DNA from: Escherichia phage Mimir124
DNA length: 64,000 nucleotides
Strand: one strand, 5' to 3'
Sequence record: PQ310662.1
The notes under the pieces were generated by a model. It was given only the letters and a program-made list of their open reading frames with translations. It was not told the origin of the DNA and made no database searches. The translations under genes were made by a program, and so were the position numbers. Below, piece by piece: positions 43,601-64,000 of this stretch (the first letter of the stretch is position 1; every line of letters starts with the position of its first letter).

Positions 43601-46600
43601 CCATCATATCAACAGCAGGTTTCAGGTTACCTTCCAGAGCTTTGGTCAGCTTTTCAGACATAGCTTCACGGGACATGTTATGTACCTTGATGCCTAATGC
43701 CTGAGCCAGACCTAACTGAAAGTCAGAGAACGCTTGGCTGTTTTCATTACTCAAGTCAATAGTAGAGAAGGTTGGCAGAATTGCTTCACGAACCAGCTTA
43801 CTGGATTGTGGGTTATTCTTACCAAGCATCTGCATACGACCTACACGGGTCATGTTGTAACCATAGTGAATAGGAGTATCCAGTCCATTCTCCTGTTCCT
43901 GAACCTGATTGATTACCCCAAACAAGGAATCGTATGCCATAGACACGGACAGGTTCTTACATTCCAATGATTTAGCAGTGTTTACGTTCAGTAGTTCAGG
44001 ATTAATCGTACCAGCACCCATCAGTTCCAGAATGTTGTCACGACCCAATGCTTCATAGAAATTAACCATCGGCATGTGTACACGGAACTCAGTAGCCTGT
44101 TCTGCTTTAAGAGCAGCTTTCTGTTCTGGAGTATTCTTGACAGCCGGGTTACGTAACTGAGTTTGAGCCACGGAAGGAATATCATCCCCGAAGTACATTT
44201 TCTCTTCCGGTTCTACGAGGACAGCTTCCTCAATAGCAGTAGGGAAATTGTTAATGGCATCGTTATCATCCAGCTTCTCAATGGTGTACAGACCTACAGT
44301 CTTATTGGAGGCTGGGTCAATTTCAGACACATCCAGCATAGACTCTTTAACTTCACCCATCTCAATAAAGGAAGACAGAATCTCTGTAGCCATTGCCATT
44401 GGGATACCCTTGGTATAACCCAGTGGTGCATTAGGATTACGATTCAAACCCCAATAGGATTCAATCTTTTGAGCCAGTGAGTTAGTAGCTTCAACCAGGG
44501 TCTGAGCATTCTCGAAGTCAGCCAGAATACCTTCAGGTAACAGGGATGCTTCTACACCAGTAATAGCAGCTACATCTTTCATGTCTTTAATGGCAGCATT
44601 CTGTGTAGCAGTCAGTCGCCATTGCAAACCAGCAAGTACAGCAGTCTCTAGCAACTGGTCATTGAACTTAAAGGTGTCACCATCCTTCTCAACGATATTC
44701 AGCAGTTTACCACCCACCCAACGGTTAGCTTCAGTACCTTCTGCAAAACGTTTACCAACATTCTTGTTAGCAAGGAACTTAGCTAGACGGTCAGAAAGAG
44801 TAGTCTTCAGGGTTTCACCAAAATCAAACAAGTCCTGATAACGCTTAATCACATCACTTGTGAGAGCGTTATTTTCTTTTTGAGTAAATGCTTCAAAACG
44901 AGCAACAGAAGACAGTGCTTTCTTAACATCAGTCAAAGGAGACTCAGAACCAATGGTACGAGACTTAGGTTCTTCCGGTAGGGTAAATGCTTTCAGGAAC
45001 TGGTTCGGTGTCTTTTCATTGTTATAGACAGGGAACACTGTTTCCATTTCTGTTTTGGTTTCGACTACTTCCTGGGTAGTATCTACTGTTTCAGACTTAG
45101 TAGTAGAGACTTCTTCTGTTTTTGGGCTAGTCTCCATAGTAGGAGCAGTCTTATTTTCTACCACTGGTTTAGCTTTAGGCTGTACAGTAGTAGTGTCCTC
45201 TTGCACTGGTGCAGGAGTTTCATCAACCTGATTCACTGGTTCATTGGTCTGTTGGGATTGAGCAGCGTCAAGATTGCCCTGACGGAACTCTTTAACTACC
45301 TGGGCAGCAGGCTTGTCCAGACGTGAATCCAATGGGGTAACTTTCACATGAGAAACATTAAGCTCCGGGTAAGCCGTAGCAAGTGCGTTAGCAATATCAG
45401 CTACGGTTTTGGCCTCCAGTCCTACTTGCTGGGCAAACTTAACAGACTTGGTATCGTAAGGATTGACACCGAGTCCAGTACGACTACGTACCCATTCACG
45501 GGAAGGCGAGAGAGCCTGATAATGAACAGACTTATTCTTATCCGCATTCCCAGAAATCAGATGCTCATTCAACGCTCCGACCTTATTCTGCATGTGCTGG
45601 GCGAACTTCATAAAGTCGCTCAGATAAGCGGAGGCCAAATCGAAGTTACCAGAGTTATACGCAGAACGAATGCGTTTCGCATGTTGCAACGCAGAGTACT
45701 GTCCTTCGTTAGAACGAGACTCATCGGTTTTAATTTGTTTACTAACAATGTCTTGAGGACGTAAGCCCAGTTCTTCTGCTTTAGCGTCGAACTCACGTGC
45801 ACCCTGTAACAAGGCAGCAGCAGATTGCAGGGCAGCACGTTGATGATTCCCCAGTGTAATCTTACCTTCACTTGCATGTTTCAGAACCATGTTCACTGAA
45901 TCTGCATCCAGTACTTCTGGGGATACATCAGCAGCCATAGCAATGTTGTTTGCTTGGGCTTGATTAGCTTCTTCAGTAGCTTTCAGCTTACCTGCTTCAG
46001 CCTGTTCCTGAATCATGGAATGGATAGCACGGTATGCACGGAGTACTTTAGGTGTATTCTGTACGTTAGCCATCAGGCCAGAGAACTGGTCTACGATAGT
46101 AGCAGCAGGGGAACCTTGTTCCAGATTAGCCAGAGCACCTGGGTCACGGTTAATGAAGCTATCCATAGACATAATGTTGTCATACATCTGGATTGCAGCT
46201 TCCATTTGAACGTTAGGATCTTCAGCAGTATTAACCAGGTCAGCCATCTTCTGAATAGCTTCTACACGGTTAGTGGAACCAGAAACAGCTTCACGGATTA
46301 CCAGGTTAGCTTGTTCCAACTCTACTGGGTCGAACTTCATTGCCTGAGTTAAGTCAGCAGCATACTGAGTAGCAGCAGCTTTCTCTTCTGGAGTGATATC
46401 CATTGCATCTACTGCTTCCTGTACAGTTGCTTGTGCCTGCTCTGCCTGAGCAGCAGCTTCCTGTGCAGCAGCGTTAACCGTAGCATCAGCTACAGGGGAT
46501 GCTTGTTCATTACGCTTAGCAACTTCTTCCCCACGTTGAACCAGGATGTTAGTAAGAGGAGATGCAGCTTTTGCTAATGTTTTACCAACCAGAGAAGCAC

Positions 46601-47996: not shown

Positions 47997-48048
47997 ACTT
48001 ATATCGTATATAGGTAACTTACTCTACAGTAAGCCAGTTAAAGAAAAA

Positions 48049-48062
48049 AGCCCCGTAGGGCT
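48049..48062. terminator. hairpin terminator between 579-aa virion gene and vRNAP gene
   Basis: agccc-cgta-gggct flanked by A-run and T-run (works on either strand). Confidence 0.5.
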
Positions 48063-48072
48063 TTTATTAGTA

Positions 48073-49812
48073 TTACCGATTTTGCCTTGGTTGCATATAC
48101 TCAGGCAGTCCCTGTGCCTGACGTAAGTACCTTGCAGCACGCTCTTCGTCTTCCTTAGCTCGTGCTCTATCCACACTAGCCTGTGACCGGAAACCCCTTG
48201 GAGCCAGGTTAGCTGGGTCAGCTTGAACCTGTGCCTGTGCAGCTTGGAGCATTGCAGCAGCTTTAGTAACAGCCTCCTGACGTGCAGGTAAAAGAGCAGT
48301 AAGACCACTTTGTCCGGTGTTAATCTTGTTCTGGGTATTTGCCAGTGCAGCTACAGCAGCATCATACGCAGTCTGTGCTGCCTGAATATTCTGCATAGCC
48401 TGAGCACGACCTAGGTTACGAACACTACCTTCCAGTGGTTCTCCCCGTTTCACACCCTCAATTAACTGTTCTACCTGACGGTCATTAAGACGCATACCAT
48501 TACCGGCTTCATTGGTAATGAATGGGTTAACTGCATCAATAGCACGACTAATATAACCTTCCGGTACACCAGTCTGTGCACGCTGCATAACAGCAGCAGC
48601 CATAGCTGGTGACATATTCCCACGCTGGGAAATATCATTCAGTCGGTTCAGTACCCAGTTACGGTCAGCACCTTTAAAATCACCTTCCAACAAACGGTTA
48701 GCAATCTCACCTACTGGGGTATTATCAGTGACAGTACCGAGGAAGTCAGTATTAAGACTACCGGTGTTATCCTGCATAGAACGAGTACCAATCATACCCT
48801 GAGCCAGAGTAGATACTGCCTGATTGCCCTGATTATTCTGAACCATAGCAAGTGGGTCAGCCCCTACTTCAGCTTGGGCAATAACAGGTTTAATCTCTTC
48901 CCATGTCATATCCTTATAAGCACCAGGGGTAGAGTTAGGCAGTGCAGCCCAAGTATCTTTAAGGTTGCCATTCTTACGAGATTCGAAGATAGCCTTACCA
49001 ATCTTATCCTGGTTCTCAGGAGAAAGGGGCTGGCTTTGCCAATCTGAACCAAGAACTTTGGGAGCGAAGTCTTTCAGTGTAGCTTGGTTAATCTGGAACG
49101 CACCAACAGGTGAAGCACCCTGGTTAGACTTCATACCATCCTGGTGTTTAATTACATCACCAATACTCATTTGAGTAATAGGAGTAGATGTACCAGCAAA
49201 CTGGTAAGTAACATCGTAAGGGGAACCCTGACGAGTACCAGCAGTACCAGGAGCAGATGCAGCACCTACGCCATTGCCATATACACCCGGGTAAGCATTA
49301 GCCAGTAATCCCTGCAAGCGTGCCTGTGCAACTGGGGACAGGTTCTTACTATATGCTTCTGCCAACAGACGGGCATCGTTGGGGTTCTCAGCACCACGGG
49401 TAATCTGTGACATTACACCCATAGCTGCCTGACTATCGGCATCATTACGTTGAGCAACACCCAAATCAAAACGGTTCTGTGCTTGACTAATAGCCTGACC
49501 TTGTTGAGTCAGAAGTGTACCTGCTCTCTCATCCAGATTCTGGAGAGTACGCTGGTTTACCAGAGAAGGGTCAACTCCCTGAAACAATGCACCTGATGCC
49601 AAAGCATTACGATACTCAGTTGGGTCTTGATATTGCATAGCATTCATCATGACGGCATTGCCAGCCTCCTGCTTGGCAGCGTTCTGGAAATTACCCAGTG
49701 CATCACTTAAGCCGGAGGTGGCGTTACCAATCATGCTACCAAATGTGCGAATGCTGTCACCAACTCCAGAGAAGTTAGGTGCATCAACATTACGCCATGT
49801 TATCTGACTCAT
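48073..49812 (-). CDS. virion structural protein (579 aa)
   Basis: Gln/Ala/Asn-rich protein in late module upstream of vRNAP. Confidence 0.5.
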   Translation of the reverse strand: MSQITWRNVDAPNFSGVGDSIRTFGSMIGNATSGLSDALGNFQNAAKQEAGNAVMMNAMQYQDPTEYRNALASGALFQGVDPSLVNQRTLQNLDERAGTLLTQQGQAISQAQNRFDLGVAQRNDADSQAAMGVMSQITRGAENPNDARLLAEAYSKNLSPVAQARLQGLLANAYPGVYGNGVGAASAPGTAGTRQGSPYDVTYQFAGTSTPITQMSIGDVIKHQDGMKSNQGASPVGAFQINQATLKDFAPKVLGSDWQSQPLSPENQDKIGKAIFESRKNGNLKDTWAALPNSTPGAYKDMTWEEIKPVIAQAEVGADPLAMVQNNQGNQAVSTLAQGMIGTRSMQDNTGSLNTDFLGTVTDNTPVGEIANRLLEGDFKGADRNWVLNRLNDISQRGNMSPAMAAAVMQRAQTGVPEGYISRAIDAVNPFITNEAGNGMRLNDRQVEQLIEGVKRGEPLEGSVRNLGRAQAMQNIQAAQTAYDAAVAALANTQNKINTGQSGLTALLPARQEAVTKAAAMLQAAQAQVQADPANLAPRGFRSQASVDRARAKEDEERAARYLRQAQGLPEYMQPRQNR

Positions 49813-49824
49813 GATGGTTTCCTA

Positions 49825-50289
49825 TTAACGAGTTAGTTTATTGGCTGCAATGTAAGCATCAGCCGAAGACTGGTCACGGTTCTCTGCCGTAGCACGACTA
49901 CGAGCACGGTCTTCCAGTGCAGTGTTATAAGACTTAATCTGGTTATTCAGGTTAGTGTTAGTAACACTCTTAGTAAAGTTCAACTGGTCTTTGGCTAACT
50001 TATTAGCCTGGAAACCACTGTAAATATTAGCTAATGAACCAAGTGCACCTAATCCTAGTTGGAAGGTAGGTACGTTCATGCCCAACTGATTAGCTGAACC
50101 AGACAGGAAAGAAGTAGGGGAAGCTACTCCCGAACCTGCCCCCATACCAATAGCAGCACCTGGGTTGTAGTTCATAGCCGGGGTATTAAAGTTCTGATTG
50201 TTATTAGACATCCAAGACATAGCCGCTGGCTGTGGGGCTTGGTTACCTGTTAAGAATGACAAATCCATGAGGATTCTCCTGTTAAGCAA
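49825..50289 (-). CDS. virion-associated protein (154 aa)
   Basis: Gly/Ala/Asn-rich ORF; 8-bp overlap with upstream gene. Confidence 0.45.
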   Translation of the reverse strand: MLNRRILMDLSFLTGNQAPQPAAMSWMSNNNQNFNTPAMNYNPGAAIGMGAGSGVASPTSFLSGSANQLGMNVPTFQLGLGALGSLANIYSGFQANKLAKDQLNFTKSVTNTNLNNQIKSYNTALEDRARSRATAENRDQSSADAYIAANKLTR

Positions 50290-52924
50290 GGTCAGTATTA
50301 AGGGTCATGTCAGAGTAGCTGCCAATCATGTTTAAAGACAAGTCAGCTATATCCGAACCAGTCATAAGAGTACGTGATAAGAAAGAATCCATCGACTCCA
50401 TTGACACGAATTGCATAGGGTCAATTACACCCTGCCCAGCAGTACCAAACATTTCTTCATACTGCTTATTGATTGCCATCATATCAGTATTGTACTGCTG
50501 CATTACACTCTCTGCTTTCTGAATAGTAGCAGCCGTGGATGCATTAATATACTGACTAATACCATTACCTACTGAGCTGGTAAGCTGCATGATGTTTTGG
50601 GCATTCATCATTTCACCTGCTAAGGTAGATAATGATGTACCAGTAGACAAAGCAGTACCAACATTCATAGCTACCATTGAAGCAATAGCAGCAACGATAA
50701 AGCCTAGTTTATCTCCAAACAGTGAAGTGGATACTTTTGTGACAAGGGATACCAGAATCATTCCAGCAATGGCATTTGCTACAGCACCAACTATTACAGC
50801 AGCTAATCCAACAAAACCTAGTGATGCACCAACTGCACCATATGCCCCAAGTATACCTGCACCACCAGCACCAGCAGTAAATACCGATACAACGACAGCA
50901 ACCACAACAACTACAATCTTAAAGGCAGAAGACTGATACCACTTTTTCTTAACCTTTTTATATGAGTTCATTACTAAGTAAGAACAGGCAGTAGATAACT
51001 GAGTACTACGAACCAGTGACATTGAACGGTAGATGTTAGTGTGTAGTGGAATGATGAAACCACTCTCTTCTGCATCACTCATTGCTTCAGCAACATCAAT
51101 GTTTACTGATTTATTTTTATATACCCTGTTATTGTGGTGTAGACCCAGTACTCTAAGTTTACGGTAAGAGTTATTACCATCCTGCCAAAGTAATTCATAC
51201 TCCTGCATAGAGTAAAACGTGGGGGTAATCTCTAGTTTTTTGCTATCACTTGTACGTATGTTCTTGCGAGTAAGAGTTATATCTCCTGCATACCTGGCTC
51301 GTAGTTGTCCCTGTTTAGCACCAGCCCATGCTTGTCCTGAGTGGGTAGTTTCAGATGCGTAGTTCCAGCCAATAGTCATGTCGTATTTGTAATGTTTACT
51401 ACTATGCACCCTAAACTCACGCTTAGGTATGACTGGGTATTCCGGTAGCGATGGAGGTGTTCCAACAATCTGGCCTTCCTGCCTGTTCCACCATGCTACA
51501 TAGTCATCAACTGCATCATTAGCTGCCTGATAACCTGCAATGACTGCCTCCAAAGTAGGATAAGTTGGGTCGGGTGGGAATGCTTCAGTAGCCATCTGAA
51601 AGAAACGGTAGATGTATTCCTTAGCAGTATCCTCTGGTGTATTAAGAGATACACCGAATGAGCCACAGATGTATTGAATATCCCCAATGTCATCATTCTT
51701 CTTAAGCTCTGATGTTACTTTATTGAGTTTTCCTCCAGTAGCTTTATAAAGAGCCTTCTTGCAGTGAGGGTAGATTGGGTCATTCTCTACCCATTGTTTA
51801 TCGTTCCTTATTGGGATGAATGGGTAGAACCGGTTATCAGTAGCCTCAGTTTCAAACAGTGAGTCTAGTGCAACGTTACCAGAGTTCTGTTTATAGATAA
51901 GCATCTTAGGTGTACCAGCAGCAGCCATTTCTGTATCAGTACGAGTAGTCTGTGATGAATACTTGCGAACCAGTGACTCTGTAGTTGTAGTAATTGTGTC
52001 GGTGCGAGTAACACCACCACCTATATCAACTACATTGGTAGTTACAGCAGTACTGGATTGAATCTCACCAAACTTTGTATGAGTCATTACTCTGTCAGAT
52101 ACAACTACAGTCACATCATCAGGTTTCTCAGTGAATCCTCTACGATAAACCTTAACGTAAGAGTTCCAGTTATCCACACTTGGTTCTGTGACAGTGCTGT
52201 CTTCATCCGGCCTACCATCAGAGTATACAGAATGAGTCTGTATAGTCTTGGTAAGGTTAGTTGTATTAGCAGTCATATCACTTGAGATGGTAGTCCATAG
52301 CAAAGTGGAGGGTAAGTCATCCTCATCATCATAGACAGTAGTCGGACCTTCTACTGGTGGATTGGTAGTAGGTGACTTATAGAATGTGTAGTCAGCATAG
52401 AGATACAAAGCACCTGGTTCAAAGTTAGTAGGTGTGAATGTAATAGTAGAGCCTCCATCTAAGGAGGTCATAGTAATTTCATTGGTATCTTCATCAATGT
52501 CTATGTCGAATCGTTCCATGATTCGACTTGGGGCATTCTCATAAAGATACTGGTCACACCATTGTTCAAAGTCAGCAAAGCCAATCTCTGCTGCCTGAAC
52601 ATAGACAGATTCCCCAGCAGGTGGAGTAATTTGACCCTCTATAACAGTAGGGTCAATCTTAGCCAGTACGCCTAATGAAGAGCCTGCCATACCAACTTCT
52701 GAATCATAGTGGTTCTTACTCCAGCTGGAGAACAGTCGCATACGAATACCTGGTCCATTCAGATAACTATCAGAGATAGTATCTGCCATAGTGAATCCTG
52801 TATTGGAAATAATGTTGCCAATGACTACAGTCTTCATATAGTTAGGACGTTTATGTATATCCCCTGCCATGTTATAGACAGAGGATGCTACGTATACTTT
52901 GGTCTTCCCACTGAATAAGCCCAT
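50282..52924 (-). CDS. large virion protein with C-terminal multi-TM Gly/Ala-rich region (putative ejection/channel protein)
   Basis: 880 aa; C-terminal FKIVVVVVAVVVSVFTAGAGGAGILGAYGAVGASLGFVGLAAVIVGAVANAIAGMILVSLV indicates several membrane helices. Confidence 0.5.
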   Translation of the reverse strand: MGLFSGKTKVYVASSVYNMAGDIHKRPNYMKTVVIGNIISNTGFTMADTISDSYLNGPGIRMRLFSSWSKNHYDSEVGMAGSSLGVLAKIDPTVIEGQITPPAGESVYVQAAEIGFADFEQWCDQYLYENAPSRIMERFDIDIDEDTNEITMTSLDGGSTITFTPTNFEPGALYLYADYTFYKSPTTNPPVEGPTTVYDDEDDLPSTLLWTTISSDMTANTTNLTKTIQTHSVYSDGRPDEDSTVTEPSVDNWNSYVKVYRRGFTEKPDDVTVVVSDRVMTHTKFGEIQSSTAVTTNVVDIGGGVTRTDTITTTTESLVRKYSSQTTRTDTEMAAAGTPKMLIYKQNSGNVALDSLFETEATDNRFYPFIPIRNDKQWVENDPIYPHCKKALYKATGGKLNKVTSELKKNDDIGDIQYICGSFGVSLNTPEDTAKEYIYRFFQMATEAFPPDPTYPTLEAVIAGYQAANDAVDDYVAWWNRQEGQIVGTPPSLPEYPVIPKREFRVHSSKHYKYDMTIGWNYASETTHSGQAWAGAKQGQLRARYAGDITLTRKNIRTSDSKKLEITPTFYSMQEYELLWQDGNNSYRKLRVLGLHHNNRVYKNKSVNIDVAEAMSDAEESGFIIPLHTNIYRSMSLVRSTQLSTACSYLVMNSYKKVKKKWYQSSAFKIVVVVVAVVVSVFTAGAGGAGILGAYGAVGASLGFVGLAAVIVGAVANAIAGMILVSLVTKVSTSLFGDKLGFIVAAIASMVAMNVGTALSTGTSLSTLAGEMMNAQNIMQLTSSVGNGISQYINASTAATIQKAESVMQQYNTDMMAINKQYEEMFGTAGQGVIDPMQFVSMESMDSFLSRTLMTGSDIADLSLNMIGSYSDMTLNTDLA

Positions 52925-52925
52925 A

Positions 52926-53768
52926 TTAGTTCAGCCCGTTGTTAGACTTCAGCTTGGTCAAAATGGTATCAATACTTGCGTTAGTGAAACCATTTGGTGG
53001 ATTCAAGCCTTCATCAATAGTCTTCTGAGTAATCCATGCATCAGTAAACAATTTAGATGCTTTAACTTCTGCATCACGTTGATATGAAGTAATCTGCTGG
53101 TCATACAACTCCTTCTGCTTACCAATACTACCTTTGATTGGTAAAGAGTCAGAACGTGTTTCCATAGTCTGTGCACGTTGTACTTCATACTGCTCTTGCA
53201 GTAAACGCCCCTGAGCTGGAAGAATCTCATCCATATTGAACTTTGCAGCACAGTAATTCTGGCCCTCAATAGAGAGTTTCATCTTAGTTAAGGCATACTC
53301 AGACTTAGTAGACAGTGCCTGTACCTTAGCAAGTACAAACTGAGCCTTAGCTGTTGCCAAACCAACACGTGCAGTAACTGCCTGAATCTGTGCCAGTGCT
53401 GCCTGGAAGTAAGCAGAGTCACGACCCAGAAGGAATTGAACAGCGTTACCCATACATGCTTCCAAGGTAGCAATATAGGCTTTAGTGTACTCACCACCTG
53501 TAATTCGGTTTTCTTTAAACTCAGCTTTAAGGTGCTTACTAGCAGATTCCATTAATGCATCAAATACACCAGAGCCGCCTACTTCACGAGTAGTAAGGGA
53601 TTCGTTAGTGATTCGGGGTACTTCTGCAAAGATTGGTGAATTATCCCCACCAGGGATATCCCATTCAGGTCCAGTCATATCAATGTTGGGAAGGGTAAAA
53701 TCATCACCCTTGGTTAACTCTTCTAGGAGTCGGTTAGCTTCTACCTCAGCAGAACAAGACATAATCAT
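52926..53768 (-). CDS. virion protein (280 aa)
   Basis: Late-module ORF abutting the 880-aa gene. Confidence 0.45.
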
Positions 53769-53838
53769 TCCTCTTGGTTCAAAAAGAAACGGCCCACGGA
53801 GTTACCCCAGTGAGCCGTGTTGAACTGTAGCTTATACG

Positions 53839-54480
53839 TTAATCGTTCAGGCTACCAGCAGCAATCTGTGCTTGAGCCAGTTGAGCCAATTCTGCTTCAG
53901 TCAACGGAGGCAATACTTCAATGGAGAACTCACGTGCTTCAGTTGCACGGATATCCGGTAAGCCATTCTTACCTTTACGAGTAGTAATGTTGATGAACTT
54001 ACGTTCTTTAAGGAACTCGTAGATACAGTACGGGATATGATAACCATTGTCGGTTACTTCACCGAACGGAACAAACTTACGTACAGTACCCATATATTCA
54101 TTAGCTACGGTGATAATCTCACCTGGCAGGTCTTTCTTCTTAGGGTCAAGGTTCTGGATACGTACACGAATCAGCCGAGTCTGTTCTGCACGAATCTTCT
54201 GACCCAGGGTCATCTTCTTAACACCTGCTTCTTGTTTAGCACCCAGTGGGTTAACAGCATCTTCTTCTACTTCTGGTTCATCGCTTGCTTGTGCAGCTTC
54301 AATCTTCTCACGAAGTTTCTCAACGGAGATGTTGTTAGAGAACTTAATATTCATCAACGTTGCACGTTGCTTAAGAACTTCAAGTTCACTAGGCATTGCA
54401 ATATCGTTAACGGTATCTTCGTTGCCCTGTACGTTCAGTTCTACGTCAGTGGTCGGTTTATCGTTAATGCTCATGTTCAT
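53839..54480 (-). CDS. hypothetical late protein (213 aa)
   Basis: ORF with GGAAAT RBS; directly downstream of capsid gene. Confidence 0.45.
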   Translation of the reverse strand: MNMSINDKPTTDVELNVQGNEDTVNDIAMPSELEVLKQRATLMNIKFSNNISVEKLREKIEAAQASDEPEVEEDAVNPLGAKQEAGVKKMTLGQKIRAEQTRLIRVRIQNLDPKKKDLPGEIITVANEYMGTVRKFVPFGEVTDNGYHIPYCIYEFLKERKFINITTRKGKNGLPDIRATEAREFSIEVLPPLTEAELAQLAQAQIAAGSLND

Positions 54481-54510
54481 ATTTCCTGTGGTTCATTTAG
54501 TTTTATTAAG

Positions 54511-54530
54511 AGGGGGACTAATGTCCCCCT
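54511..54530 (-). promoter_or_regulatory. strong hairpin immediately downstream of the major capsid gene (attenuator/stability element)
   Basis: agggggac-taat-gtccccct (8-bp GC-rich stem); on the minus-strand mRNA it is not followed by a U-run. Confidence 0.4.
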
Positions 54531-54547
54531 TGTTTTATTTCGGACTA

Positions 54548-55750
54548 TTACAGAGGAGCAACAGTCTTAATCAGAGCCAGACGTTCTGGGCGTTTAACCA
54601 GAATACCGTAGTACCACTTGATAGAACTGAAACCAGTCTCACCATACGGGTCATTACGGTCAGCAGTTTCTTTACCTGGCATCTTAGTCATGATGGTGAA
54701 CTTAACAGACTTACCATCAGTCTGGAAGCCAATGGTAGAGAAGGAGTCATCACCAACTACCAGCATCGGGAATACGTCGTAGTGTTCTTCACCACTAACC
54801 ATAGAAGAACGATAACCCGGGTTAGTAGTAACCTGAGCACCAGCACCTGCCCAATGCAGCATCTCAGGAACCTGGATAATACGGAACTTGTCGATACAAC
54901 CAATCTCACCATTCATCAGAGTACCAGCATCAGCATAGTGCTGAACCTCGATGAATGCTTTGTTACCGAACAGGTCTTTCATCGCTTTCAGTTCTGGAAC
55001 CAGCTCAGAACCTACGTACATTACACGAGTACCACCAAGTACTTTGGTATCAGTAAGTTTAGAACCAGTGATGATAGTAGTCTGGGTCGGAGTACGGTTC
55101 TCAGTAAGAATCTGGTCAAGACGCATCAGGTTCTTATAAGAAACTACAGACGGGGTAGCACCTTCACCAGTGATGGTAGCATCAGAGGTAGCAGCACCTG
55201 CATACAGTACAGTACCAGCAGCAGCCAACAGGTCTTTCTGGAGAACAGCTTCAGTCAACTGTACAGCACCGTTCATCAGTTCACGAGACAGGTGTTCTTT
55301 CAGTTGGTCATCAGAATCAAAGTCCAGGGACTCTTGAGTAAATTCATAGAAGAAACCGAACTTATGAATGGAACCTTCACGAGACAGACGAGTAAAGCCT
55401 ACACGGTTAACACGACCACCATTCTCTGTCAGCAGAGGCAGTTTAGAGGTGATGTTACCAACGTCTCTGGAAGAGCCATACAGGTTACCATTAACGATGG
55501 TAGCTCCATTAGCATCAATACCCTGGTCGTTGATGTTCTTATCATCAAGCAATGGAACGTACTCATACACCTTAACAGTCTTACCGTAGTTCTTCGGCAT
55601 GTTAATGGTGTTAGCCAGTGGCATGAAATACTGGTCTTTACGGGACTGAATAATAGCTTTCTTCAGCCAGTAATAGGTATTCATCTGGTCGGAACCAGCA
55701 CCATCAATGCTAGATTTCTGACCGTCAATTGGGGCGTTATAGTTTAACAT
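54548..55750 (-). CDS. major capsid protein (N4 gp56-like)
   Basis: 400 aa (N4 MCP is about 401 aa); position between scaffold-like acidic protein and virion genes; hairpin downstream. Confidence 0.65.
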
Positions 55751-55766
55751 ATCATCTTATTCCTGT

Positions 55767-56987
55767 TTAAAGACTACCCGGTACTGGGAGTTTAGCGAAA
55801 TCTTCATCACTCATAGCGAGTGGGTTTACAATAGGTGTTGCTTTACGTGTAGCAGCCCGATTGAGGGAAGCTGCTTTAGCTTGCTCACTGTTAGCCAGAG
55901 TCTGCTTAGGTTGTGCTACACGCACTACCGGCTGAACCACTGGCTTAACTGCTTGTACCGGTTCTGGCTTAGCTACTCGGTTAAATGCCCCTTGCTGTGC
56001 AAGGAGGTTACCGACGTGGTTATAAGCCTGAATGAACGGAGTACCTACCGGAATCTGGCCTAACATCTGAAGACGGTTCACTTCGTTTGCAATGGTGTCA
56101 TAAATACCATTCTCACGTTGTTCGTGAATAGTCTGGAGTAGGCCACGATTCTGGTAAAGAGCATCTTTACTGGCAGCATCCCATGTCGAGCCGATAACAC
56201 CTAATGTAGCTTGTCCTTCTTGAGTAGACTTTAAGTCGTCAATTTCGGTTGCAAAATCTGCTTCGGTGTCGGTAACACGGTGATTGCCACCCTGGTAATT
56301 AATTTCCTCATCTGGGTTAAAGTCCAGAGGATCTGTACCAGAGTCTTTGAGCAACTTCTTAATGGCTTCAGGATTCTTTTTATCCAGGTCAATCAGGAAA
56401 GAAAGTTTATCCTCATCCATTAAACCGTTGTTCTGTAACATCAGCATTACCTTACGGTAAGGCTTTAGTTCTTGCATCTTACGAGTATAGTTAGCACCCA
56501 TCTGCATCAGGCTAATGGCCTCCTCCGGTGAACGGGGAGTAATCACTTTGCCGTTAGCTTTAAAAGGAGCCATCAACTTTTCGTAACTTTCCTTATAGTT
56601 GAAGTCAGCAGGCAGACCTTCAGACTGTTTGCCTTCTTCTTCCTGTTCCTGGCCTGGTTCAGCAGTAGAAGGTTCAGCTTTAGTAATCGGCTCGCCGTTA
56701 CTATCAACTTCTGTGTCAACAACTTTATCATCAACTTTATCAGAAGTTAAAGGATTTGCTGAATCTTCTTCATCTAGTTCGACTTCAGGGGAGGTTTCTT
56801 CGGTTGGTAGGTCTTCAACAGCAGGGGTGTCAACTTCTTCTTCAGGAGTCTGTACGCCGTTGGTTTCTGGGTTGTTCTGAGTGGAAGTATCTTCCTCAGC
56901 AATAATTGCTGGGGCTTCCATATTCAGAATCTCATCATCCGACATTGCGAGAATGTCGGAAGCTGTGGTTGCAGCTTCCGTAGTCAT
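55767..56987 (-). CDS. putative scaffolding protein
   Basis: Strongly acidic, low-complexity N-terminal third (EEDTSTQNNPETNGVQTPEEEVDTPAVEDLPTEETSPE); located between portal and capsid genes. Confidence 0.4.
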   Translation of the reverse strand: MTTEAATTASDILAMSDDEILNMEAPAIIAEEDTSTQNNPETNGVQTPEEEVDTPAVEDLPTEETSPEVELDEEDSANPLTSDKVDDKVVDTEVDSNGEPITKAEPSTAEPGQEQEEEGKQSEGLPADFNYKESYEKLMAPFKANGKVITPRSPEEAISLMQMGANYTRKMQELKPYRKVMLMLQNNGLMDEDKLSFLIDLDKKNPEAIKKLLKDSGTDPLDFNPDEEINYQGGNHRVTDTEADFATEIDDLKSTQEGQATLGVIGSTWDAASKDALYQNRGLLQTIHEQRENGIYDTIANEVNRLQMLGQIPVGTPFIQAYNHVGNLLAQQGAFNRVAKPEPVQAVKPVVQPVVRVAQPKQTLANSEQAKAASLNRAATRKATPIVNPLAMSDEDFAKLPVPGSL

Positions 56988-57006
56988 AGGAAATATCTCC
57001 GGTTAA

Positions 57007-57351
57007 TTATTCGTCTTCAGGTTCAGCACGAACTGCGTCGAGTTCTTCTTCTACCTGTAGAATAACGTCAGCTTCGTTTTCGCCCATACGAATAGCGAGG
57101 TCAAGCCAACGACGTAAGTGACCAGCAGCTTGAGCCATGTTCAATGCATCTGCACGGTTATTAGCTTCAAGCAGTGGGTCACCAGACTCTTGCACGTAAC
57201 GTGCACAATCTTCCGTACAGAACTGGCGAAGGATTACTTTACGGAACAGTGGATTCTCCAGAAGTTTACGTACATCTTCTGCATGTGCAACTGCACCTTT
57301 AGCAGCTTCCAGTCGATGTTCCAGTCCAGCGATTGTTGATTCTTTACTCAT
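57007..57351 (-). CDS. hypothetical late protein (114 aa)
   Basis: ORF between portal and scaffold-like genes. Confidence 0.45.
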   Translation of the reverse strand: MSKESTIAGLEHRLEAAKGAVAHAEDVRKLLENPLFRKVILRQFCTEDCARYVQESGDPLLEANNRADALNMAQAAGHLRRWLDLAIRMGENEADVILQVEEELDAVRAEPEDE

Positions 57352-57364
57352 GTGAAGGTCTGCC

Positions 57365-59635
57365 TTACAGGTTCATGCCAAGAGCCGATGCTGGGTCTTG
57401 GCTAGGGTCATAGAATTGGGAACTAAGTGAATAAGCCGGGTCTTGCTGAGCAGCTATATCACGTTCTGGTATAGAGTTCCCATCAGTCAAAGTATTATAT
57501 CCAACAGCAGCAGATATGTTGGGGGTAGTTTCCCCTTCTTTAATAGGTGTTGTCAATGCCTTAGTTATCTGAAGGTTCTGGTTTCCTTGAGACTGTGCTT
57601 TTTGTTTTTCCATATCACGAGCATGTTTAGTACCAGATTCCTGTTCCAGATAATCCAAGTCTTTAAGGTCACCAGCAGAAGCAGCCTCTTTAGCCTTAGC
57701 CATATTGAGTGCAATCTTACTCTGCAACTCTTCATTCTCAAGCTGTGCTTTCTGAATTGCCAATTGCTTAAGCTGTTCTTCCATAGGGTCTGGTTGTGGT
57801 TGCCAAGTACGTAATTCATGAGCCAGGTCAGGCATACGTTTAAGTTCTGCAATCTTAGCTACGAGAGATAACGTAATAGTCTGGTCAACCGTATTACCCA
57901 ATGTTTGAACCATGAAGCTCAAATCCTGAGACTTCTGGTTATCAATTTCAGCAGTGTTAATATCAACCTCAATGTCGAAGTTACCTTTAAGGTCTTCACG
58001 GTTAATCTCTACATACTGCTCGTTAGTAATACGTACTACTTCTTTCTCAGATAAGAACACAGCATTCATTGCACAAATCTTAGTACCAATGTCTGCCATA
58101 CCCTTAGCTAATCGACGAAGGATTGCCATCTCTCGTTTAGATGCTGCATCAAGTGCACCACGAATACCAGCAGCCACGTCCCCATAAGCTGAGCCAGTTA
58201 CACCACCAGAGAATGCTTTAACACCAGTTAGGGATTCTGCTTCCTGGTTTTGCATCTGGGTCATTACTATTGCCGACTGAGGTAACTCTGGGAACTTATG
58301 TTCCATAATGGCCTGACTAGGATTACCCTGCATTGGGTTATATTCATAGTCTTGCCCATCGTCATATCGACGTCGGTTCAGTGTATCCAGCATCCCTTTA
58401 GGGTAGCCACGTTGACCATTTGCACTTCGACCTAACAGGTCAATCATCCCACGCATAGTTGCACCAAGAATTGCTTGGTTATCCCCTAATAGTTCAGCAT
58501 CAGCTTCACCAAAGAGTTCGCGTTTACGTGGCATGTAAGGAACAACTACTAAAGGTAACTTACCATCCGGGAATGGGTTCTTCTCCATACGAATAAGAGT
58601 AGAACCAATCCAGGTAGCAACAATTGGTTCCAGAGAACCATCATCGTTGATGTCGTAAAATCCCCAGTACTCATAAGCAACAACTTTCTTACGAAGTGCA
58701 TCCTTAAACTGGAAGTCACTAGGAGTTTTACTTTCATGGTCTGGGTCAGTCATAGGGCTGGAGCTTTCCCAATCAATCTTATCCAGGTTGTGATAACGGT
58801 CTTTGTTCTTCATGAGGTCTGCTTTGCATGTCTCGAATGAAATGACTGCATAAAGAGCCTTATCCAAATCACCATTACAGCTTGGGTCAATAACTACGTT
58901 ATTAGGGTTAAGCATTTCAACGGTAGGTCTGTTAACCAGTGCTTTCTCTACCTCTACCTCAGTAACTCCAGTCTGGATTGCATAAGTAGCTTCACCAGTT
59001 TCATTAAAGTAGTTAACAGCTTCCTTAATATCTTCAGACATTGTTTCATCATACTCACGAGGATTCTCAGCCTGAAGTTGTAAAGCCTGTTGAAGAACAT
59101 CTGCCTGTTCCTGTTTCTCAATGGGATACAGCTGGAAGACTGGGGTTTCTGTTTTAATCTTAACAGTCTTACGTTCCCAACCGATACGAGCAATACCAGT
59201 ACCATCGTCTACGATACTATGCACGTAATCATCCACCAGTTTTACTTTATTAAGCTGGGTACGGAATTGGTAGTTAAGAACTAACTCATTCTGACGTGCA
59301 GCTAACTCATCTTCAAAAGTAACAGGTGTTAGCTTAAAGAGTTTACTGGATGAGAGGAATGGTTCAGATAATGGTGCATAACGCCACTCCGCCTGACGGC
59401 GAACCAGTCTAGGCTGGACTTGTGAACGTCCCTTAATCTTTGGGGGTTTAGCTTTACCCTTGACTTCCATTAGGTCATTCCACTCACGAATCTGAGACAT
59501 GATTGCATCATGAGCAGGTTTAGCAGATTCCAAATCACCCTTCAGTAATTGGATACTTGGTTCCTTCTTCCAGTCCGTTAACTTCTCTGATTGAGTCGGG
59601 TCTGGTAAAGGCTTAAAAGAGTCTTGGTGTTCCAT
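57365..59635 (-). CDS. portal protein (N4 gp59-like)
   Basis: 756 aa; position upstream of scaffold and capsid genes; size matches N4 portal as I recall it. Confidence 0.6.
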
Positions 59636-59643
59636 AGTTATTC

Positions 59644-60144
59644 CTATTCAAAAAGTTTACGGTCAGCCTGAATTTGTTTACCCAACTCAATTAGTTGGTT
59701 GTCACGGAGTCTAACAGTTGCCCGGAGTTCTTCAACCAAACGTCTGCCTTCTTCAAGACTATTGTCGAGTCTGGCTGCATGGCTTGCAAGACTTCTGCAC
59801 TCAAAGGCTCCGGCTTCGGCTTGACGTTTATATACCGATGCTCGTCTTTCAGACTGTTGCATCCGGCTGTCATAATCACTGCTAACGCGAGCAAGCTCGC
59901 TTGCGTAATTACTCTCAGCCGTCTGCAACCGGGAAGTGAGTAACCCGACTTCATAACTATGGTTTCTTTGGAGAGCATTGTATTTGTCCTGTAATTTTTG
60001 TGTTGCCTTAAGGTCTTCGACCTTTTGGTCATCCCACTTCTTTTGAACAGTAGACTGTCCATTGGAATTACCCCAAAAGTAAATGGTGGCCCCAAGGACC
60101 ACCACCAGAAGATAAGGCCAACCTTTAGAGATTAGCATCTTCAT
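59644..60144 (-). CDS. i-spanin (Rz-like)
   Basis: N-terminal TM ([16 protein letters not shown]) followed by charged coiled-coil region; immediately downstream of endolysin; start set to internal M (MKMLISKG). Confidence 0.5.
59691..59954 (-). CDS. candidate embedded o-spanin (Rz1-like lipoprotein)
   Basis: Alternate frame inside Rz; [32 protein letters not shown] has charged n-region, hydrophobic core and a lipobox-like TAGC; Pro-containing mature part. Confidence 0.35.
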   Translation of the reverse strand: MKSGYSLPGCRRLRVITQASLLALAVIMTAGCNSLKDEHRYINVKPKPEPLSAEVLQAMQPDSTIVLKKADVWLKNSGQLLDSVTTN

Positions 60145-61721: not shown

Positions 61722-63968
61722 TTAGCTGGATGCCAGCACTTTATTTGCTATAAGAGAAGCAATCAACGCATTAACGGCCACAGAAGCTGGGTCAGTACCT
61801 GTACTTGGAGTTACTGCTGCTCCCTTAGTGACAGGACCTACTACTATGACACCAGACGGATTATCTGATGTTGGTTTGTTAGAGGACAGCCTCAAGTAAC
61901 CATCAGAACCTACCCAGCAATAATACCCATTAAGGATGATATAGCCATCACGATAATCCCCAACGTAAGCAGTTCCTCCCTTCTGCCTTGACCCAATCCA
62001 ACCCGAACCAGCAGACATAGTTTTACGGAGTTGGTTACCCTGCATACAAGGGTTGGTCACATTAGAAGATAGGACCACAGACTGAGATACAGTAGGTCTA
62101 TCCATACAGCCTGCCCCAACTATTGGGTAGTCTTCCTGAGACAGCTGCATAGTAATGGCATCCGTAGATGTAGACAACCCATTAATATTATAGAGATTAT
62201 TGCTACCAATAGTCTGAGCTGCACCTGTAACGGGGTTAGTGGTCCCAGCACCTGTACGGAAAGCGATGTTTATACTACTACCAGTACCTACACCTGTGCA
62301 GGTAATATTGTACGTAGAATCAGAACCACCCAATTTCAGGCCAGACTTACATACGGCAGTTACGATACAACCAACCAAATCTCTCAGCTCTATTGCATAT
62401 TTAGCTATACTAATTCCAGAGAACACAGTAGTAGAGCAACCTTGTAGAAAAGTCTGTCCACCAATTAACCCATCTACAACAGAATCACGCAATCCGTATA
62501 ACCAGATACTACGAAGCACCGTAGACCGAGATGGTTCCACCCGAATTCCCTGTATAACCATATTTCTATTGGGTACATAGTAAGGAGTAAAGATGGCATC
62601 TACGTAGAAACCGTAGTTACCCTGAGAACCAGTGGCATTCGCATCTTTGGTTGAGATTTTACCAATCACCAGACCGGGGGAACTCATTACCTTGAATACA
62701 GCATTATCGGTAGTAGAGCTAGAACCAGATAAAGTCACACTATCTATAATTGAGTGACCGAATACATAAGTAGTATTCATACTGGATGGTTCATACGCAC
62801 CTAACACATTATTGTTAGTAAAATGAAAGTTATATAAGAAGCTGTTAACAGATCGCCCAATAGTAACACCATCTACCTTAACCCCAGCAGATTGTCTAAT
62901 CTCCAATCGTTTTATATAACCAGCCCCTACGATTGAGACATTTTCAATGTAACCAACTTTAGCAATCCAAGGGTTAACATGAGTAAATTCCAACCGCTTA
63001 TCCAGAACAATACTGGTAGACGTAATGGACTTAACTCGAACCACTTCGAAGTAGGCAGACTTGGCCTCTACCCCATCAGTACCATCAGTGTTCTCAATAC
63101 GCAGTAAATCATTTACTGCGAATAGGGCTGTATAATCCCCCGGTATAGTATAACCATCTGATGACAGAGTACCTGTGTACTTGACGGCAGACTTGAGAAT
63201 GGAGATTACAGGTTTCTGGTAAGGGTAACGAAGACCGGAACTCAAGGTAAGAGATGAGCTGGACGCAGCAGCTACAGTAGCAATATCAGAGCCAATTTCA
63301 TTACCCTGAGAGGCACTACCTCCGTCAGTATCGTTAAGACGTACTACAACAGTGTCTCCTACGTTAAAATCCAGAGCATTACCCTGAGAGGCACTACCTC
63401 CGTCAGTATCGTTAAGACGTACTACAACAGTGTCTCCTACGTTAAATCCAGAGAAGTCACCAGATAATACTGTGGTTCCTGCTGGGATATCTGACCATGC
63501 AGCGTCACTGTTTACTGTCCTTGTAGTGGAGAAGTACTCGCCTTTAACAATTACAGAGAACTGTAAGTTAGCATTCTGATTCAGCTGGATACTAACGCTT
63601 TTGTCAATGTTAAGTGTGTTACCTATGTAATTACCAGCTGGGAAAACCAGAGGCCACTTTTTAGATATTGCAGCATTGGCAGCTAATAGTATTGCAGCAG
63701 TATCGTCAGTAACACCATCCCCTTTAGCCCCATACATTTGAGGAGTAACGTAGTTAAGACCACCGATAAGGGATGTTCCTGTCAGAGAAGACAGAGCATC
63801 TGCTAACCAACCCCCAGGTTGAGCCTTGGTTAGTGTAAATTGTCCAACATCTGTAGTAAGAATCAGGGAATCAGACGATACTGACCATGCTACAGGAGTA
63901 CCTGTGGCGTTACCCGTAAACCAACAGGTTTCAGTAATTGGGTCATACAAAACTGTATACCCATTCAC
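61722..63968 (-). CDS. tailspike/tail fibre with pectate-lyase-like beta-helix (putative depolymerase)
   Basis: QMYGAKGDGVTDDTAAI matches the pectate lyase superfamily N-terminal motif common in phage tailspikes; 748 aa; internal 26-aa tandem repeat. Confidence 0.6.
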   Translation of the reverse strand: MNGYTVLYDPITETCWFTGNATGTPVAWSVSSDSLILTTDVGQFTLTKAQPGGWLADALSSLTGTSLIGGLNYVTPQMYGAKGDGVTDDTAAILLAANAAISKKWPLVFPAGNYIGNTLNIDKSVSIQLNQNANLQFSVIVKGEYFSTTRTVNSDAAWSDIPAGTTVLSGDFSGFNVGDTVVVRLNDTDGGSASQGNALDFNVGDTVVVRLNDTDGGSASQGNEIGSDIATVAAASSSSLTLSSGLRYPYQKPVISILKSAVKYTGTLSSDGYTIPGDYTALFAVNDLLRIENTDGTDGVEAKSAYFEVVRVKSITSTSIVLDKRLEFTHVNPWIAKVGYIENVSIVGAGYIKRLEIRQSAGVKVDGVTIGRSVNSFLYNFHFTNNNVLGAYEPSSMNTTYVFGHSIIDSVTLSGSSSTTDNAVFKVMSSPGLVIGKISTKDANATGSQGNYGFYVDAIFTPYYVPNRNMVIQGIRVEPSRSTVLRSIWLYGLRDSVVDGLIGGQTFLQGCSTTVFSGISIAKYAIELRDLVGCIVTAVCKSGLKLGGSDSTYNITCTGVGTGSSINIAFRTGAGTTNPVTGAAQTIGSNNLYNINGLSTSTDAITMQLSQEDYPIVGAGCMDRPTVSQSVVLSSNVTNPCMQGNQLRKTMSAGSGWIGSRQKGGTAYVGDYRDGYIILNGYYCWVGSDGYLRLSSNKPTSDNPSGVIVVGPVTKGAAVTPSTGTDPASVAVNALIASLIANKVLASS
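63301..63446. repeat. 78-bp tandem duplication (2 units, 68 bp identical) inside the tailspike gene
   Basis: ttaccctgagaggcactacctccgtcagtatcgttaagacgtactacaacagtgtctcctacgttaaa occurs at 63301 and 63379; encodes NVGDTVVVRLNDTDGGSASQGN twice. Confidence 0.85.
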
Positions 63969-64000
63969 AGGTGAATGCTTATTTATATAACCAACAGCAG

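What the first reader, a model, noticed from the sequence alone, without database searches (positions are those of the whole stretch)
63301..63446. Recent in-frame 78-bp tandem duplication in the tailspike gene
Two 68-bp units are identical at the DNA level and duplicate a 26-aa segment (NVGDTVVVRLNDTDGGSASQGN...) within the beta-helix-like region of the putative depolymerase tailspike. Perfect nucleotide identity implies a recent event. Such duplications can change receptor-binding geometry or be unstable, giving population heterogeneity in host range.
Basis: seen in the sequence. Interest (0 to 1): 0.5.

Follow-up and report, generated by a model that had tools for sequence, protein, structure and literature searches.

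The report
Frame-rescued tandem duplication in tailspike gene
A phage tailspike (capsule-degrading enzyme) gene carries a unique, recent 78-base tandem insertion, made of a 77-base duplication plus one extra base that restores the reading frame; this is a familiar kind of mutation in phage receptor-binding genes.

Summary
The repeat is real and is the only tandem repeat in the 64-kb window. Two 70-nt stretches (63299-63368, 63377-63446) are identical. After a 1-nt indel the match continues for 7 more nt, so the event is a 77-nt duplication plus one extra T (coding strand), 78 nt in total.

A 77-nt duplication alone would stop translation 5 codons after the junction. The extra T lies in the only homopolymer inside the 21-nt stretch where a +1 insertion can restore the frame.

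The gene (minus strand, 61722 to beyond 64000) is the secondary, gp63.1-position tailspike of a G7C-like N4-type phage. Its enzymatic head resembles Klebsiella depolymerase P560dep/Dpo43 (43% identity; TM 0.86-0.90 to PDB 7VUL).

Every relative examined has one copy and no length variation at this site. That includes ten metagenome contigs, eight of them 98.4-99.4% identical in DNA.

The 26 extra residues repeat a strand and a conserved loop. They most probably lie in the first of two beta-barrel "insertion domains", not in a beta-helix rung. AlphaFold leaves one copy as an unplaced loop and keeps the rest of the fold.

Verdict: a genuine, lineage-specific duplication, most likely followed by a frame-restoring second mutation. 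Any effect on host range is untested. Interest is modest.

The parts
61722..64000 (-). Tailspike / depolymerase gene. The C-terminal 758 codons and the stop are in the window; about the first 30 codons lie beyond the window end. The inferred full length is 788 aa, against 762 aa in single-copy relatives.
   Evidence: One frame is open from the window edge to the stop at 61722. PF12708 matches at residues 89-138. The profile matches PDB 7VUL (P560 depolymerase) at E 1e-296. Foldseek gives TM 0.90 for the two-copy model and 0.86 for the one-copy model. P0001 (762 aa) aligns end to end.
63377..63453 (-). Repeat unit A, 77 nt, the upstream copy on the coding strand: CTCTGGATTTAACG...CAGGGTAATG, with a T3 run as in all relatives.
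63299..63376 (-). Repeat unit B, 78 nt, the downstream copy on the coding strand. It is identical to unit A except for one extra T (TTTT).
   Evidence: The BLAST segments against single-copy relatives overlap by exactly 77 nt on the subject and contain one gap.
63366..63369 (-). A4 run on the + strand (T4 on the coding strand) holding the extra, frame-restoring base. The equivalent run in unit A (63444-63446) and in all relatives has 3 bases (TTT, or TTC in the 90%-identical L005/L007).
   Evidence: Removing one T gives ...QGNALDLT*. This is the only homopolymer of 3 or more in the 21-nt stretch where a +1 insertion yields an intact ORF.
63180..63470 (-). Region encoding insertion domain 1 (approximate limits; visible residues about 177-273). 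It contains both copies of the strand TVVVRL and of the conserved loop LNDTDGGSASQGN.
   Evidence: Secondary structure of the AF2 models. Internal-repeat test. Dpo43 is classed as 'double insertion domain' near cap 1 (PMC13385381). Invariant residues are listed.
62958..63149 (-). Region encoding insertion domain 2 (approximate; visible residues about 284-347). It is an ancient paralogue of domain 1.
   Evidence: hhalign of the two halves gives probability 90.8%, E 1.2e-6. A tblastn query from domain 1 also hits domain 2 of L002/L018 at 35% identity.
63819..64000 (-). N-terminal attachment module, cut by the window end. It is homologous to the N-termini of G7C gp63.1 and of CBA120 TSP1/TSP3.
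   Evidence: The profile hits 4QNL residues 1-66 (E 3.4e-6), 4OJ5 and 6NW9. 4QNL is G7C gp63.1 (PMC7506556). phrog_22037 'tail spike protein' matches residues 2-60.

Best explanation
This is a genuine, lineage-specific mutation in the secondary tailspike of a G7C-like N4-type phage (the spike in the position of gp63.1, which in G7C docks onto gp66).

Shown by the sequence:
- A 77-nt segment was duplicated head to tail with no microhomology at the junction.
- 77 is not a multiple of 3, so that duplication alone ends translation 5 codons past the junction. The spike would be cut at about residue 242 of 788, losing almost the whole enzymatic head.
- One extra T sits in a T3 run 7 nt inside the downstream copy and restores the frame.

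Inferred:
- Order of events. The duplication came first and the +1 second, or both arose in one error-prone event. If the +1 had come first, both copies would carry TTTT.
- Selection. Only frame-restored genomes keep a working spike, which explains why the extra base sits at the single slippage-prone site in the only permissible 21-nt stretch.
- Product. The protein is a full-length 788-aa spike with 26 extra residues: a second copy of one beta-strand plus the highly conserved loop LNDTDGGSASQGN of the first of two beta-barrel insertion domains next to the N-terminal cap of the beta-helix. One copy takes the native position and the other bulges out as a surface loop, leaving the fold intact.
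- Function. The allele is most likely a tolerated pseudo-revertant scar. At most it modifies the insertion domain, which by analogy lines the substrate groove.
- Stability. Recombination or slippage between the 70-nt repeats should regenerate the exact wild-type allele at a low frequency, so stocks may be mixed.
For: - Repeat anatomy.
- Frame analysis: the observed ORF is intact, and deleting one T gives ALDLT*.
- The BLAST segments against relatives overlap by exactly 77 nt and contain a single gap.
- All ten related metagenome contigs have one copy with TTT or TTC, and both window copies share lineage-specific synonymous bases.
- +1 insertions restore an ORF only from -4 to +16 of the junction, and the T3 run at +7 is the only homopolymer there.
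- A clean 78-nt duplication would need 6-7 additional substitutions (my reading).
- The assembly otherwise looks sound. The 3449-aa vRNAP ORF and all other large ORFs are intact, there is only one gap in 2279 nt against relatives, and there is no other tandem repeat.
- Fold: 7VUL E 1e-296; TM 0.90 and 0.86.
- In the two-copy AF2 model, copy 1 (residues 185-208) has pLDDT below 50, while the rest matches the one-copy model.
- Insertion-domain assignment. In LKA1 gp49 the insertion domain lines the groove and the active site (PMC5701251).
- Two-spike architecture: the gene order in relatives is adaptor, first spike of 756-923 aa, then this spike. G7C model: PMC6872550.
Against: - No reads are available, so an artefact cannot be formally excluded.
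- The allele occurs nowhere else. The junction 26-mer is absent from the viral, metagenome and genome contig collections. The 90%-identity protein cluster holds only 762-aa and 825-aa members.
- If selection only required a working spike, precise loss of a 77-nt tandem repeat (back to wild type) should be far more frequent than a +1 in a T3 run (general knowledge of repeat instability). Survival of the duplicated allele therefore hints at a bottleneck, an advantage of the duplication, or a single-step origin.
- The site is length-invariant in 17 homologous loci down to 49% identity and the loop is nearly invariant, so the insertion may be costly rather than tolerated.
- The AF2 models are monomers built from 12-13 sequences. 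The alignment itself forces one copy to be an unmatched insertion, so 'disordered loop' is weak evidence.
- I could not inspect coordinates, so placement in insertion domain 1 rests on secondary structure, the internal repeat and the published class of Dpo43.
Confidence: 0.6

Rival explanations
1. Adaptive duplication. The extra copy of the strand and conserved loop reshapes the insertion domain next to the substrate groove. It was selected because it changes or broadens capsule or O-antigen recognition, as known tail-fibre duplications do.
For: - The duplication hits the most conserved motif of the insertion domain.
- In LKA1 gp49 such a domain contributes to the groove and the active site (PMC5701251).
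- There are precedents for in-frame tandem duplications in receptor-binding genes arising under selection: EfV12-phi1 (PMC6365445) and T4 gp37 (Tetart 1996, cited there; otherwise from my own knowledge).
- Survival of the duplicated allele, rather than the expected more frequent precise-excision revertant, would be explained by an advantage (inference).
Against: - Selection for a duplication as such would usually pick a cleanly in-frame event, not a 77-nt frameshifting one that needs a second hit.
- No relative, however distant, has any length change at this site.
- No natural population carries the allele.
- No phenotype data exist.
Confidence: 0.2
2. Assembly or sequencing artefact. Either the duplication or the extra homopolymer base is not present in the phage DNA.
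For: - The allele is unique to this window.
- Reads cannot be examined.
- Homopolymer length errors occur on some sequencing platforms (general knowledge).
Against: - Assemblers usually collapse repeats rather than create them (general knowledge).
- Two independent errors would have to combine to give an intact ORF, with the second falling in a 21-nt stretch of a 64-kb sequence.
- All other large ORFs, including a 10.3-kb one, are intact.
- Only one gap occurs in 2279 nt against 99.4%-identical relatives.
- It is the only tandem repeat in the window.
Confidence: 0.12
3. Single-step complex event that is neutral. One error-prone template switch or repair synthesis produced the duplication and the extra T together. 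There was never a spike-null intermediate, and the allele drifted or hitch-hiked through a plaque bottleneck.
For: - The two changes lie within 10 nt of each other.
- This avoids the problem that precise-excision revertants should outnumber +1 revertants (inference).
- The predicted fold is unchanged.
Against: - There is no microhomology and no inverted repeat at the end points to guide a template switch.
- The extra base is not at the junction, where untemplated bases are normally added, but inside the copy at a homopolymer. That is the signature of an independent slippage event.
Confidence: 0.2

Closest known systems
In-frame tandem duplications in phage receptor-binding genes: T4 gene 37 host-range duplications (Tetart et al. 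1996, from my own knowledge and cited in PMC6365445) and the 1.8-kb tail-fibre duplications of Enterococcus phage EfV12-phi1 (PMC6365445)
   Same: A head-to-tail duplication of a segment inside a receptor-binding protein gene. It is in frame in the final product, absent from the ancestor and close relatives, has sequence-identical copies, and is expected to be unstable.
   Different: - The unit here is very short: 77+1 nt, giving 26 aa that make up part of a domain rather than a whole one.
- It lies in an enzymatic tailspike, not in a fibre adhesin.
- It needed a second, frame-restoring mutation.
- No host-range phenotype is known.
Klebsiella capsule depolymerases P560dep (PDB 7VUL) and IME205 Dpo43, 'Class 2D double insertion domain' (PMC13385381; PMC11652154)
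   Same: About 43% identity over the whole enzymatic region. Profile E 1e-296. TM 0.86-0.90. Two paralogous insertion lobes follow the first rungs.
   Different: - The N-terminal module differs: it is of the G7C gp63.1 / CBA120 TSP type.
- There is an extra C-terminal segment of about 40 aa with a helix.
- The phage family differs.
- At 43% identity the specificity cannot be transferred.
- Only the window protein has the 26-aa duplication.
G7C gp63.1, the branched secondary tailspike that docks on gp66 (4QNL; PMC6872550, PMC7506556)
   Same: The phage backbone is G7C-like (about 93-95% nt identity to Gamaleyavirus genomes). The N-terminal module is homologous. The gene follows a longer first spike in relatives.
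   Different: The head is a lyase-type beta-helix depolymerase rather than the gp63.1 esterase. Docking on the first spike is inferred, not shown, and the first spike lies outside the window.
Intragenic frameshift suppression (compensating +1/-1 pairs, the classic T4 rIIB work of Crick and Brenner; from my own knowledge)
   Same: A frameshifting lesion is rescued by a nearby compensating indel. The short stretch between the two is read out of frame: CTCTGGA is read as A-L-D in place of S-G.
   Different: The first lesion is a 77-nt duplication rather than a single-base indel, so the rescue leaves a 26-aa repeat in the protein.
[quoted passage not shown]
   Same: It is the next-best structural match after 7VUL. 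A beta-barrel interrupts the beta-helix. In LKA1 it deepens the substrate groove and contributes a conserved Arg to the active site.
   Different: Sequence identity is only 12% and TM about 0.3-0.37. LKA1 gp49 has one insertion domain, not two. The role of the domain in the window protein is untested.

Membership tests
Recent tandem segmental duplication in a phage receptor-binding gene | Head-to-tail direct repeat with (near-)identical units | tested here: met
   70 nt are exact, and 77 of 78 match with one indel. Period 78, TRF score 301.
Recent tandem segmental duplication in a phage receptor-binding gene | Reading frame preserved through to the native stop | tested here: met
   The ORF is intact, but only because of the extra T. 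The 77-nt duplication alone gives a stop after 5 codons.
Recent tandem segmental duplication in a phage receptor-binding gene | Absent from the closest relatives (derived state) | tested here: met
   There is a single copy in 10 metagenome contigs (eight at 98.4-99.4% nt identity, two at about 90%), in all 9 cluster members, and in every more distant homologue.
Recent tandem segmental duplication in a phage receptor-binding gene | Alters adsorption or host range | not testable with these tools
   This needs isogenic phages or purified enzymes.
P560dep / Dpo43-type (Class 2D) capsule depolymerase | Sequence homology across the whole enzymatic region | tested here: met
   7VUL at E 1e-296, covering profile positions 102-726. 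About 43% identity to Dpo43, P560 and related Przondovirus proteins.
P560dep / Dpo43-type (Class 2D) capsule depolymerase | Same three-dimensional fold | tested here: met
   Foldseek TM (normalised by target) is 0.90 for the two-copy model and 0.86 for the one-copy model against 7VUL. Model pLDDT is about 80.
P560dep / Dpo43-type (Class 2D) capsule depolymerase | Two insertion domains close to cap 1 | tested here: inconclusive
   Two paralogous strand-rich lobes of about 65 aa follow the cap helix and the first rungs. This fits the published class of Dpo43. I could not inspect model coordinates.
P560dep / Dpo43-type (Class 2D) capsule depolymerase | K47-type capsule lyase activity | not testable with these tools
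   Activity and specificity need experiment. At 43% identity specificity cannot be inferred. The review lists the P560dep mechanism as lyase, with catalytic residues not available.
G7C gp63.1-type branched secondary tailspike | N-terminal docking module homologous to gp63.1 / CBA120 TSP1 | tested here: met
   The profile hits 4QNL (E 3.4e-6), 4OJ5 (5.9e-8) and 6NW9 (7.5e-8) over the first 60-85 residues. 4QNL identity comes.
G7C gp63.1-type branched secondary tailspike | Encoded next to a longer first spike that carries the docking (T4 gp10-like) domain | tested here: inconclusive
   In near-identical relatives a 923-, 907- or 756-aa spike lies immediately upstream, preceded where the contig extends that far by an SU10-type adaptor gene. 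The corresponding region lies outside the window, and the gp10-like domain was not examined.

The most novel reading that the evidence does not exclude
The duplicated allele persisted instead of the expected, much more frequent precise-excision revertant because the second copy of the conserved GGSASQGN loop changes what the depolymerase binds or cuts. Out-of-frame duplication, +1 slippage and excision would then form a mutation-driven off / altered / wild-type switch of the secondary tailspike in a two-spike phage.
Probability: 0.12. Interest if true: 0.6.

Novelty: new member of a known kind. Interest (0 to 1): 0.3.

Why it matters
If the allele is real and functional, it is a natural insertion mutant in the first insertion domain of a P560dep/Dpo43-type depolymerase. 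The role of that domain and the catalytic residues of this enzyme type are still undescribed. Comparing one-copy and two-copy enzymes would show whether the conserved loop takes part in substrate recognition.

The 77+1 anatomy also suggests that a two-spike phage may have passed through a state with one spike knocked out. That bears on how dispensable each spike is.

On the practical side, a phage stock carrying a 77-nt tandem repeat in its host-range gene may be genetically mixed. This matters for any therapeutic or typing use.

Tried and rejected
- Megablast of the tailspike region against the phage collection found nothing. Only protein-level search and the metagenome protein search found relatives.
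- Exact scans for the 26-nt junction in viral, metagenome and genome contigs all returned nothing.
- A second, profile-based protein search added only remote cap-region hits, so the family is small.
- BLASTP between the two halves of the insertion region found no alignment. Profile-profile comparison and tblastn did.
- Clean 78-nt duplication: rejected. At offset 78 only 70 bases match, and the flanking 8-mers match at 1-2 of 8 positions.
- +1 first, duplication second: rejected. Both copies would then carry TTTT.
- Microhomology or hairpin-guided template switching: there is no microhomology at the unit boundaries. The only inverted repeat nearby is a weak 15-nt pair 188 nt apart, unrelated to the end points.
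- 26 aa adding one extra beta-helix rung: rejected as the likeliest reading. The segment falls in the strand-plus-loop of the first insertion lobe.
- I did not run the exact look-up of a reconstructed 788-aa protein. All 9 members of the 90% cluster were already listed, with none of that length.
Full report
**1. The observation**

The + strand at 63299-63453 holds a two-copy tandem array. Two 70-nt stretches (63299-63368 and 63377-63446) are identical, with a start-to-start spacing of 78. Tandem Repeats Finder reports period 78, 2.0 copies, 98% matches, 1% indels and score 301. It is the only tandem array scoring at least 50 in the 64-kb window. By simple arithmetic, chance cannot give a 70-nt exact match at a fixed offset; the expectation is about 5e-38.

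More importantly, the homology continues past the exact part. Copy 1 reads GTTAAAATCCAGAG and copy 2 reads GTTAAATCCAGAG. After a one-base indel in an A run (a T run on the coding strand), 7 more bases are identical. The units are therefore 78 nt (63299-63376) and 77 nt (63377-63453).

**2. The gene**

The only long frame here is on the minus strand. It is open from the window edge to a stop at 61722, giving 758 visible codons.

- It has a weak pectate-lyase-like cap signature (PF12708, residues 89-138).
- Its profile matches PDB 7VUL, the Klebsiella phage P560 depolymerase, at E 1e-296.
- AlphaFold models with two copies and one copy (pLDDT 79.6 and 80.6) superpose on 7VUL with TM 0.90 and 0.86.
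- The next structural matches are lyase-type spikes: LKA1 gp49, phi297 gp61 and the K1 lyase.

The rest of the window is a G7C-like N4-type phage. Positions 40000-60000 are about 93-95% identical to Escherichia phage IME11, PhAPEC7 and other Gamaleyavirus genomes. Portal, spanin and endolysin genes lie downstream of the spike.

The first 60 or so residues are homologous to the N-termini of G7C gp63.1 (4QNL) and of CBA120 TSP1/TSP3. In near-identical relatives the gene follows a longer first spike, which is preceded by an SU10-type adaptor gene where the contig extends that far. This makes it the gp63.1-position secondary spike of a branched two-spike system (architecture from PMC6872550), fitted with a Dpo43/P560dep-type head.

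**3. Is the duplication derived?**

Yes. A search of 5.8 billion protein clusters found only 12 related clusters. The nearest, P0001, is 762 aa and aligns end to end except for a 26-residue gap. Its 90% cluster has 9 members, of 762 or 825 aa, and none of 788 aa.

Ten metagenome contigs from different samples carry the gene. Eight are 98.4-99.4% identical in DNA and two are about 90% identical. All have a single copy with TTT or TTC. BLAST splits the window gene into two segments whose subject ranges overlap by exactly 77 nt, with one gap.

Both window copies carry the same two lineage-specific synonymous bases, found in L010/L012 but not in L003-type alleles. The event therefore happened within this lineage.

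Seventeen homologous loci, down to 49% identity, have no gap anywhere in the surrounding 90 residues. The junction 26-mer is absent from the viral, metagenome and genome contig collections.

Identity of the copies is a weak clock. At about 0.6% divergence from the nearest relatives, only about 0.4 differences would be expected in 2 x 77 nt. The dating rests on absence from relatives.

**4. Anatomy of the event**

On the coding strand the sequence is:

...GGTGACTT [CTCTGGATTTAACG...GGGTAATG] [CTCTGGATTTTAACG...GGGTAATG] AAATTGG...

- The relatives read ...GACTT CTCTGGATTTAACG...GGGTAATG AAATTGG.
- The most economical history is a 77-nt head-to-tail duplication with no junction microhomology, plus one extra T in the T3 run of the downstream copy.
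- A clean 78-nt duplication would need 6-7 further substitutions.
- A pure 77-nt duplication reads ...QGN-A-L-D-L-T-stop. It would cut the spike after about 242 of 788 residues.
- I enumerated every single-base insertion into that hypothetical allele. An intact ORF is recovered only for insertions between -4 and +16 of the junction. The only homopolymer of 3 or more in that 21-nt stretch is the TTT at +7, which is exactly where the extra base sits.
- The three junction residues A-L-D exist because CTCTGGA is read one frame off from its reading (S-G) in the upstream copy.

This pattern is what selection for a restored frame would leave, and it is hard to get from an assembler. The assembly also shows no general indel problem. 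The 3449-aa virion RNA polymerase ORF and all other large ORFs are intact.

**5. Where in the protein**

After the cap helix (P0001 residues 130-143) and a few short strands come two strand-rich lobes, at about 206-277 and 288-351. The regular beta-helix strands follow from about 359.

The two lobes are paralogous. hhalign gives probability 90.8% and E 1.2e-6, and tblastn finds 35% identity in Dpo43. BLASTP alone saw nothing.

The DepoCatalog paper places Dpo43, the 43%-identical protein in my alignment, in 'Class 2D, double insertion domain', with two insertion domains close to cap 1 (PMC13385381).

The duplicated 23 residues are the strand TVVVRL plus the loop NDTDGGSASQGN of the first lobe. 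That loop carries several of the invariant residues of the region, including G-S-A, N-E, G and D. It is modelled with low confidence even in the one-copy protein.

So the duplication is most probably in insertion domain 1, not in a helix rung. In LKA1 gp49 a comparable beta-barrel insertion domain deepens the substrate groove and contributes to the active site (PMC5701251). That is an analogy, not a test.

In the two-copy model the upstream copy (residues 185-208) has pLDDT below 50, and the downstream copy takes the native place. All other confidence values and secondary-structure elements match the one-copy model. This is weak evidence. The input alignment itself makes one copy an unmatched insertion, and the model is a monomer built from 13 sequences.

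**6. Most likely explanation and rivals**

My preferred account (confidence about 0.6) is a real 77-nt duplication followed by, or accompanied by, a +1 slippage that rescued the frame. The result is a full-length spike with a 26-residue surface excursion in insertion domain 1. A two-spike phage could plausibly survive a temporary loss of the secondary spike on hosts served by the first spike; this is inference.

One point does not fit a simple 'rescue' story. Precise loss of a 77-nt tandem repeat should be much more frequent than a +1 in a T3 run (general knowledge). The survival of the duplicated allele therefore needs one of three things:

- a bottleneck;
- a single-step origin (rival, about 0.2);
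- an advantage of the duplication (the adaptive rival, about 0.2).

An artefact (about 0.12) is disfavoured by the compensated-frame pattern, but it cannot be excluded without reads. Exchange within the 70-nt identical part would regenerate the exact wild-type allele, so a mixed stock is a reasonable expectation. This too is inference.

**7. Comparison with what is known, and novelty**

In-frame tandem duplications in phage receptor-binding genes are established. Examples are the T4 gene 37 host-range duplications (Tetart 1996, from my own knowledge and cited) and the 1.8-kb tail-fibre duplications selected during coevolution in EfV12-phi1 (PMC6365445). Rescue of a frameshift by a nearby compensating indel is also classical.

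The enzyme is a member of the small P560dep/Dpo43 family by sequence and fold. Its specificity cannot be inferred at 43% identity.

I rate this a new member of a known kind. The unusual details are the 77+1 history and the location in a conserved loop of a poorly understood insertion domain.

**8. Verdict**

- Interest is 0.3.

Noticed in passing
window 62958-63470 (minus strand): The two insertion lobes of the depolymerase are ancient paralogues of each other. hhalign gives probability 90.8%, E 1.2e-6, and tblastn finds 35% identity in Dpo43. The family therefore already contains an old internal duplication of the same kind of segment that is newly duplicated here.
   Followed up: partly
L005 3515-5992 and L007 3515-5992 (protein P0014, 825 aa), against L003/L006 (762 aa): The same enzymatic head (about 90% nt identity) is fused to a different, longer N-terminal module (Pfam Tail_spike_N). 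It sits behind a different first spike (907 aa plus an extra 85-aa gene, against 923 aa). L009 and L011 have yet another first spike of 756 aa. This looks like modular swapping of docking modules and partner spikes around one head.
   Followed up: no
L009 2669-3292 and L011 2682-3305, against window 63375-63998: The first 624 nt of the visible gene are only about 95.4-95.7% identical to L009/L011, while the rest is 98.4-99.4% identical. This suggests a recombination mosaic within the N-terminal third of the gene.
   Followed up: no
window 61746-61790 (minus strand; visible residues 737-751): A C-terminal extension of about 40 aa with a predicted alpha-helix is present in the N4-like and 160-kb-phage homologues. 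It is absent from the Przondovirus enzymes (Dpo43/P560dep end at ...GP). It has a weak profile hit to the phi29 head-fibre C-terminus (3QC7, E 0.008). It may be a trimerising coiled coil.
   Followed up: no
window 61722-64000; L001 (Klebsiella phage RCIP0012, 160 kb); L002 (IME205, Przondovirus): The same depolymerase head occurs in three unrelated phage backbones: N4-like Gamaleyavirus, a 160-kb Klebsiella phage (58% identity) and T7-like Przondovirus (43%). This indicates horizontal transfer of the head. The window phage's host (E. coli or Klebsiella) is not determined.
   Followed up: partly
window 54329-55747 (+) against 54548-55750 (-): A 472-aa ORF lies antisense to, and almost coextensive with, the 400-aa ORF whose counterpart in L005 carries the Pfam domain Phage_capsid_4. 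It is probably a spurious antisense frame.
   Followed up: no
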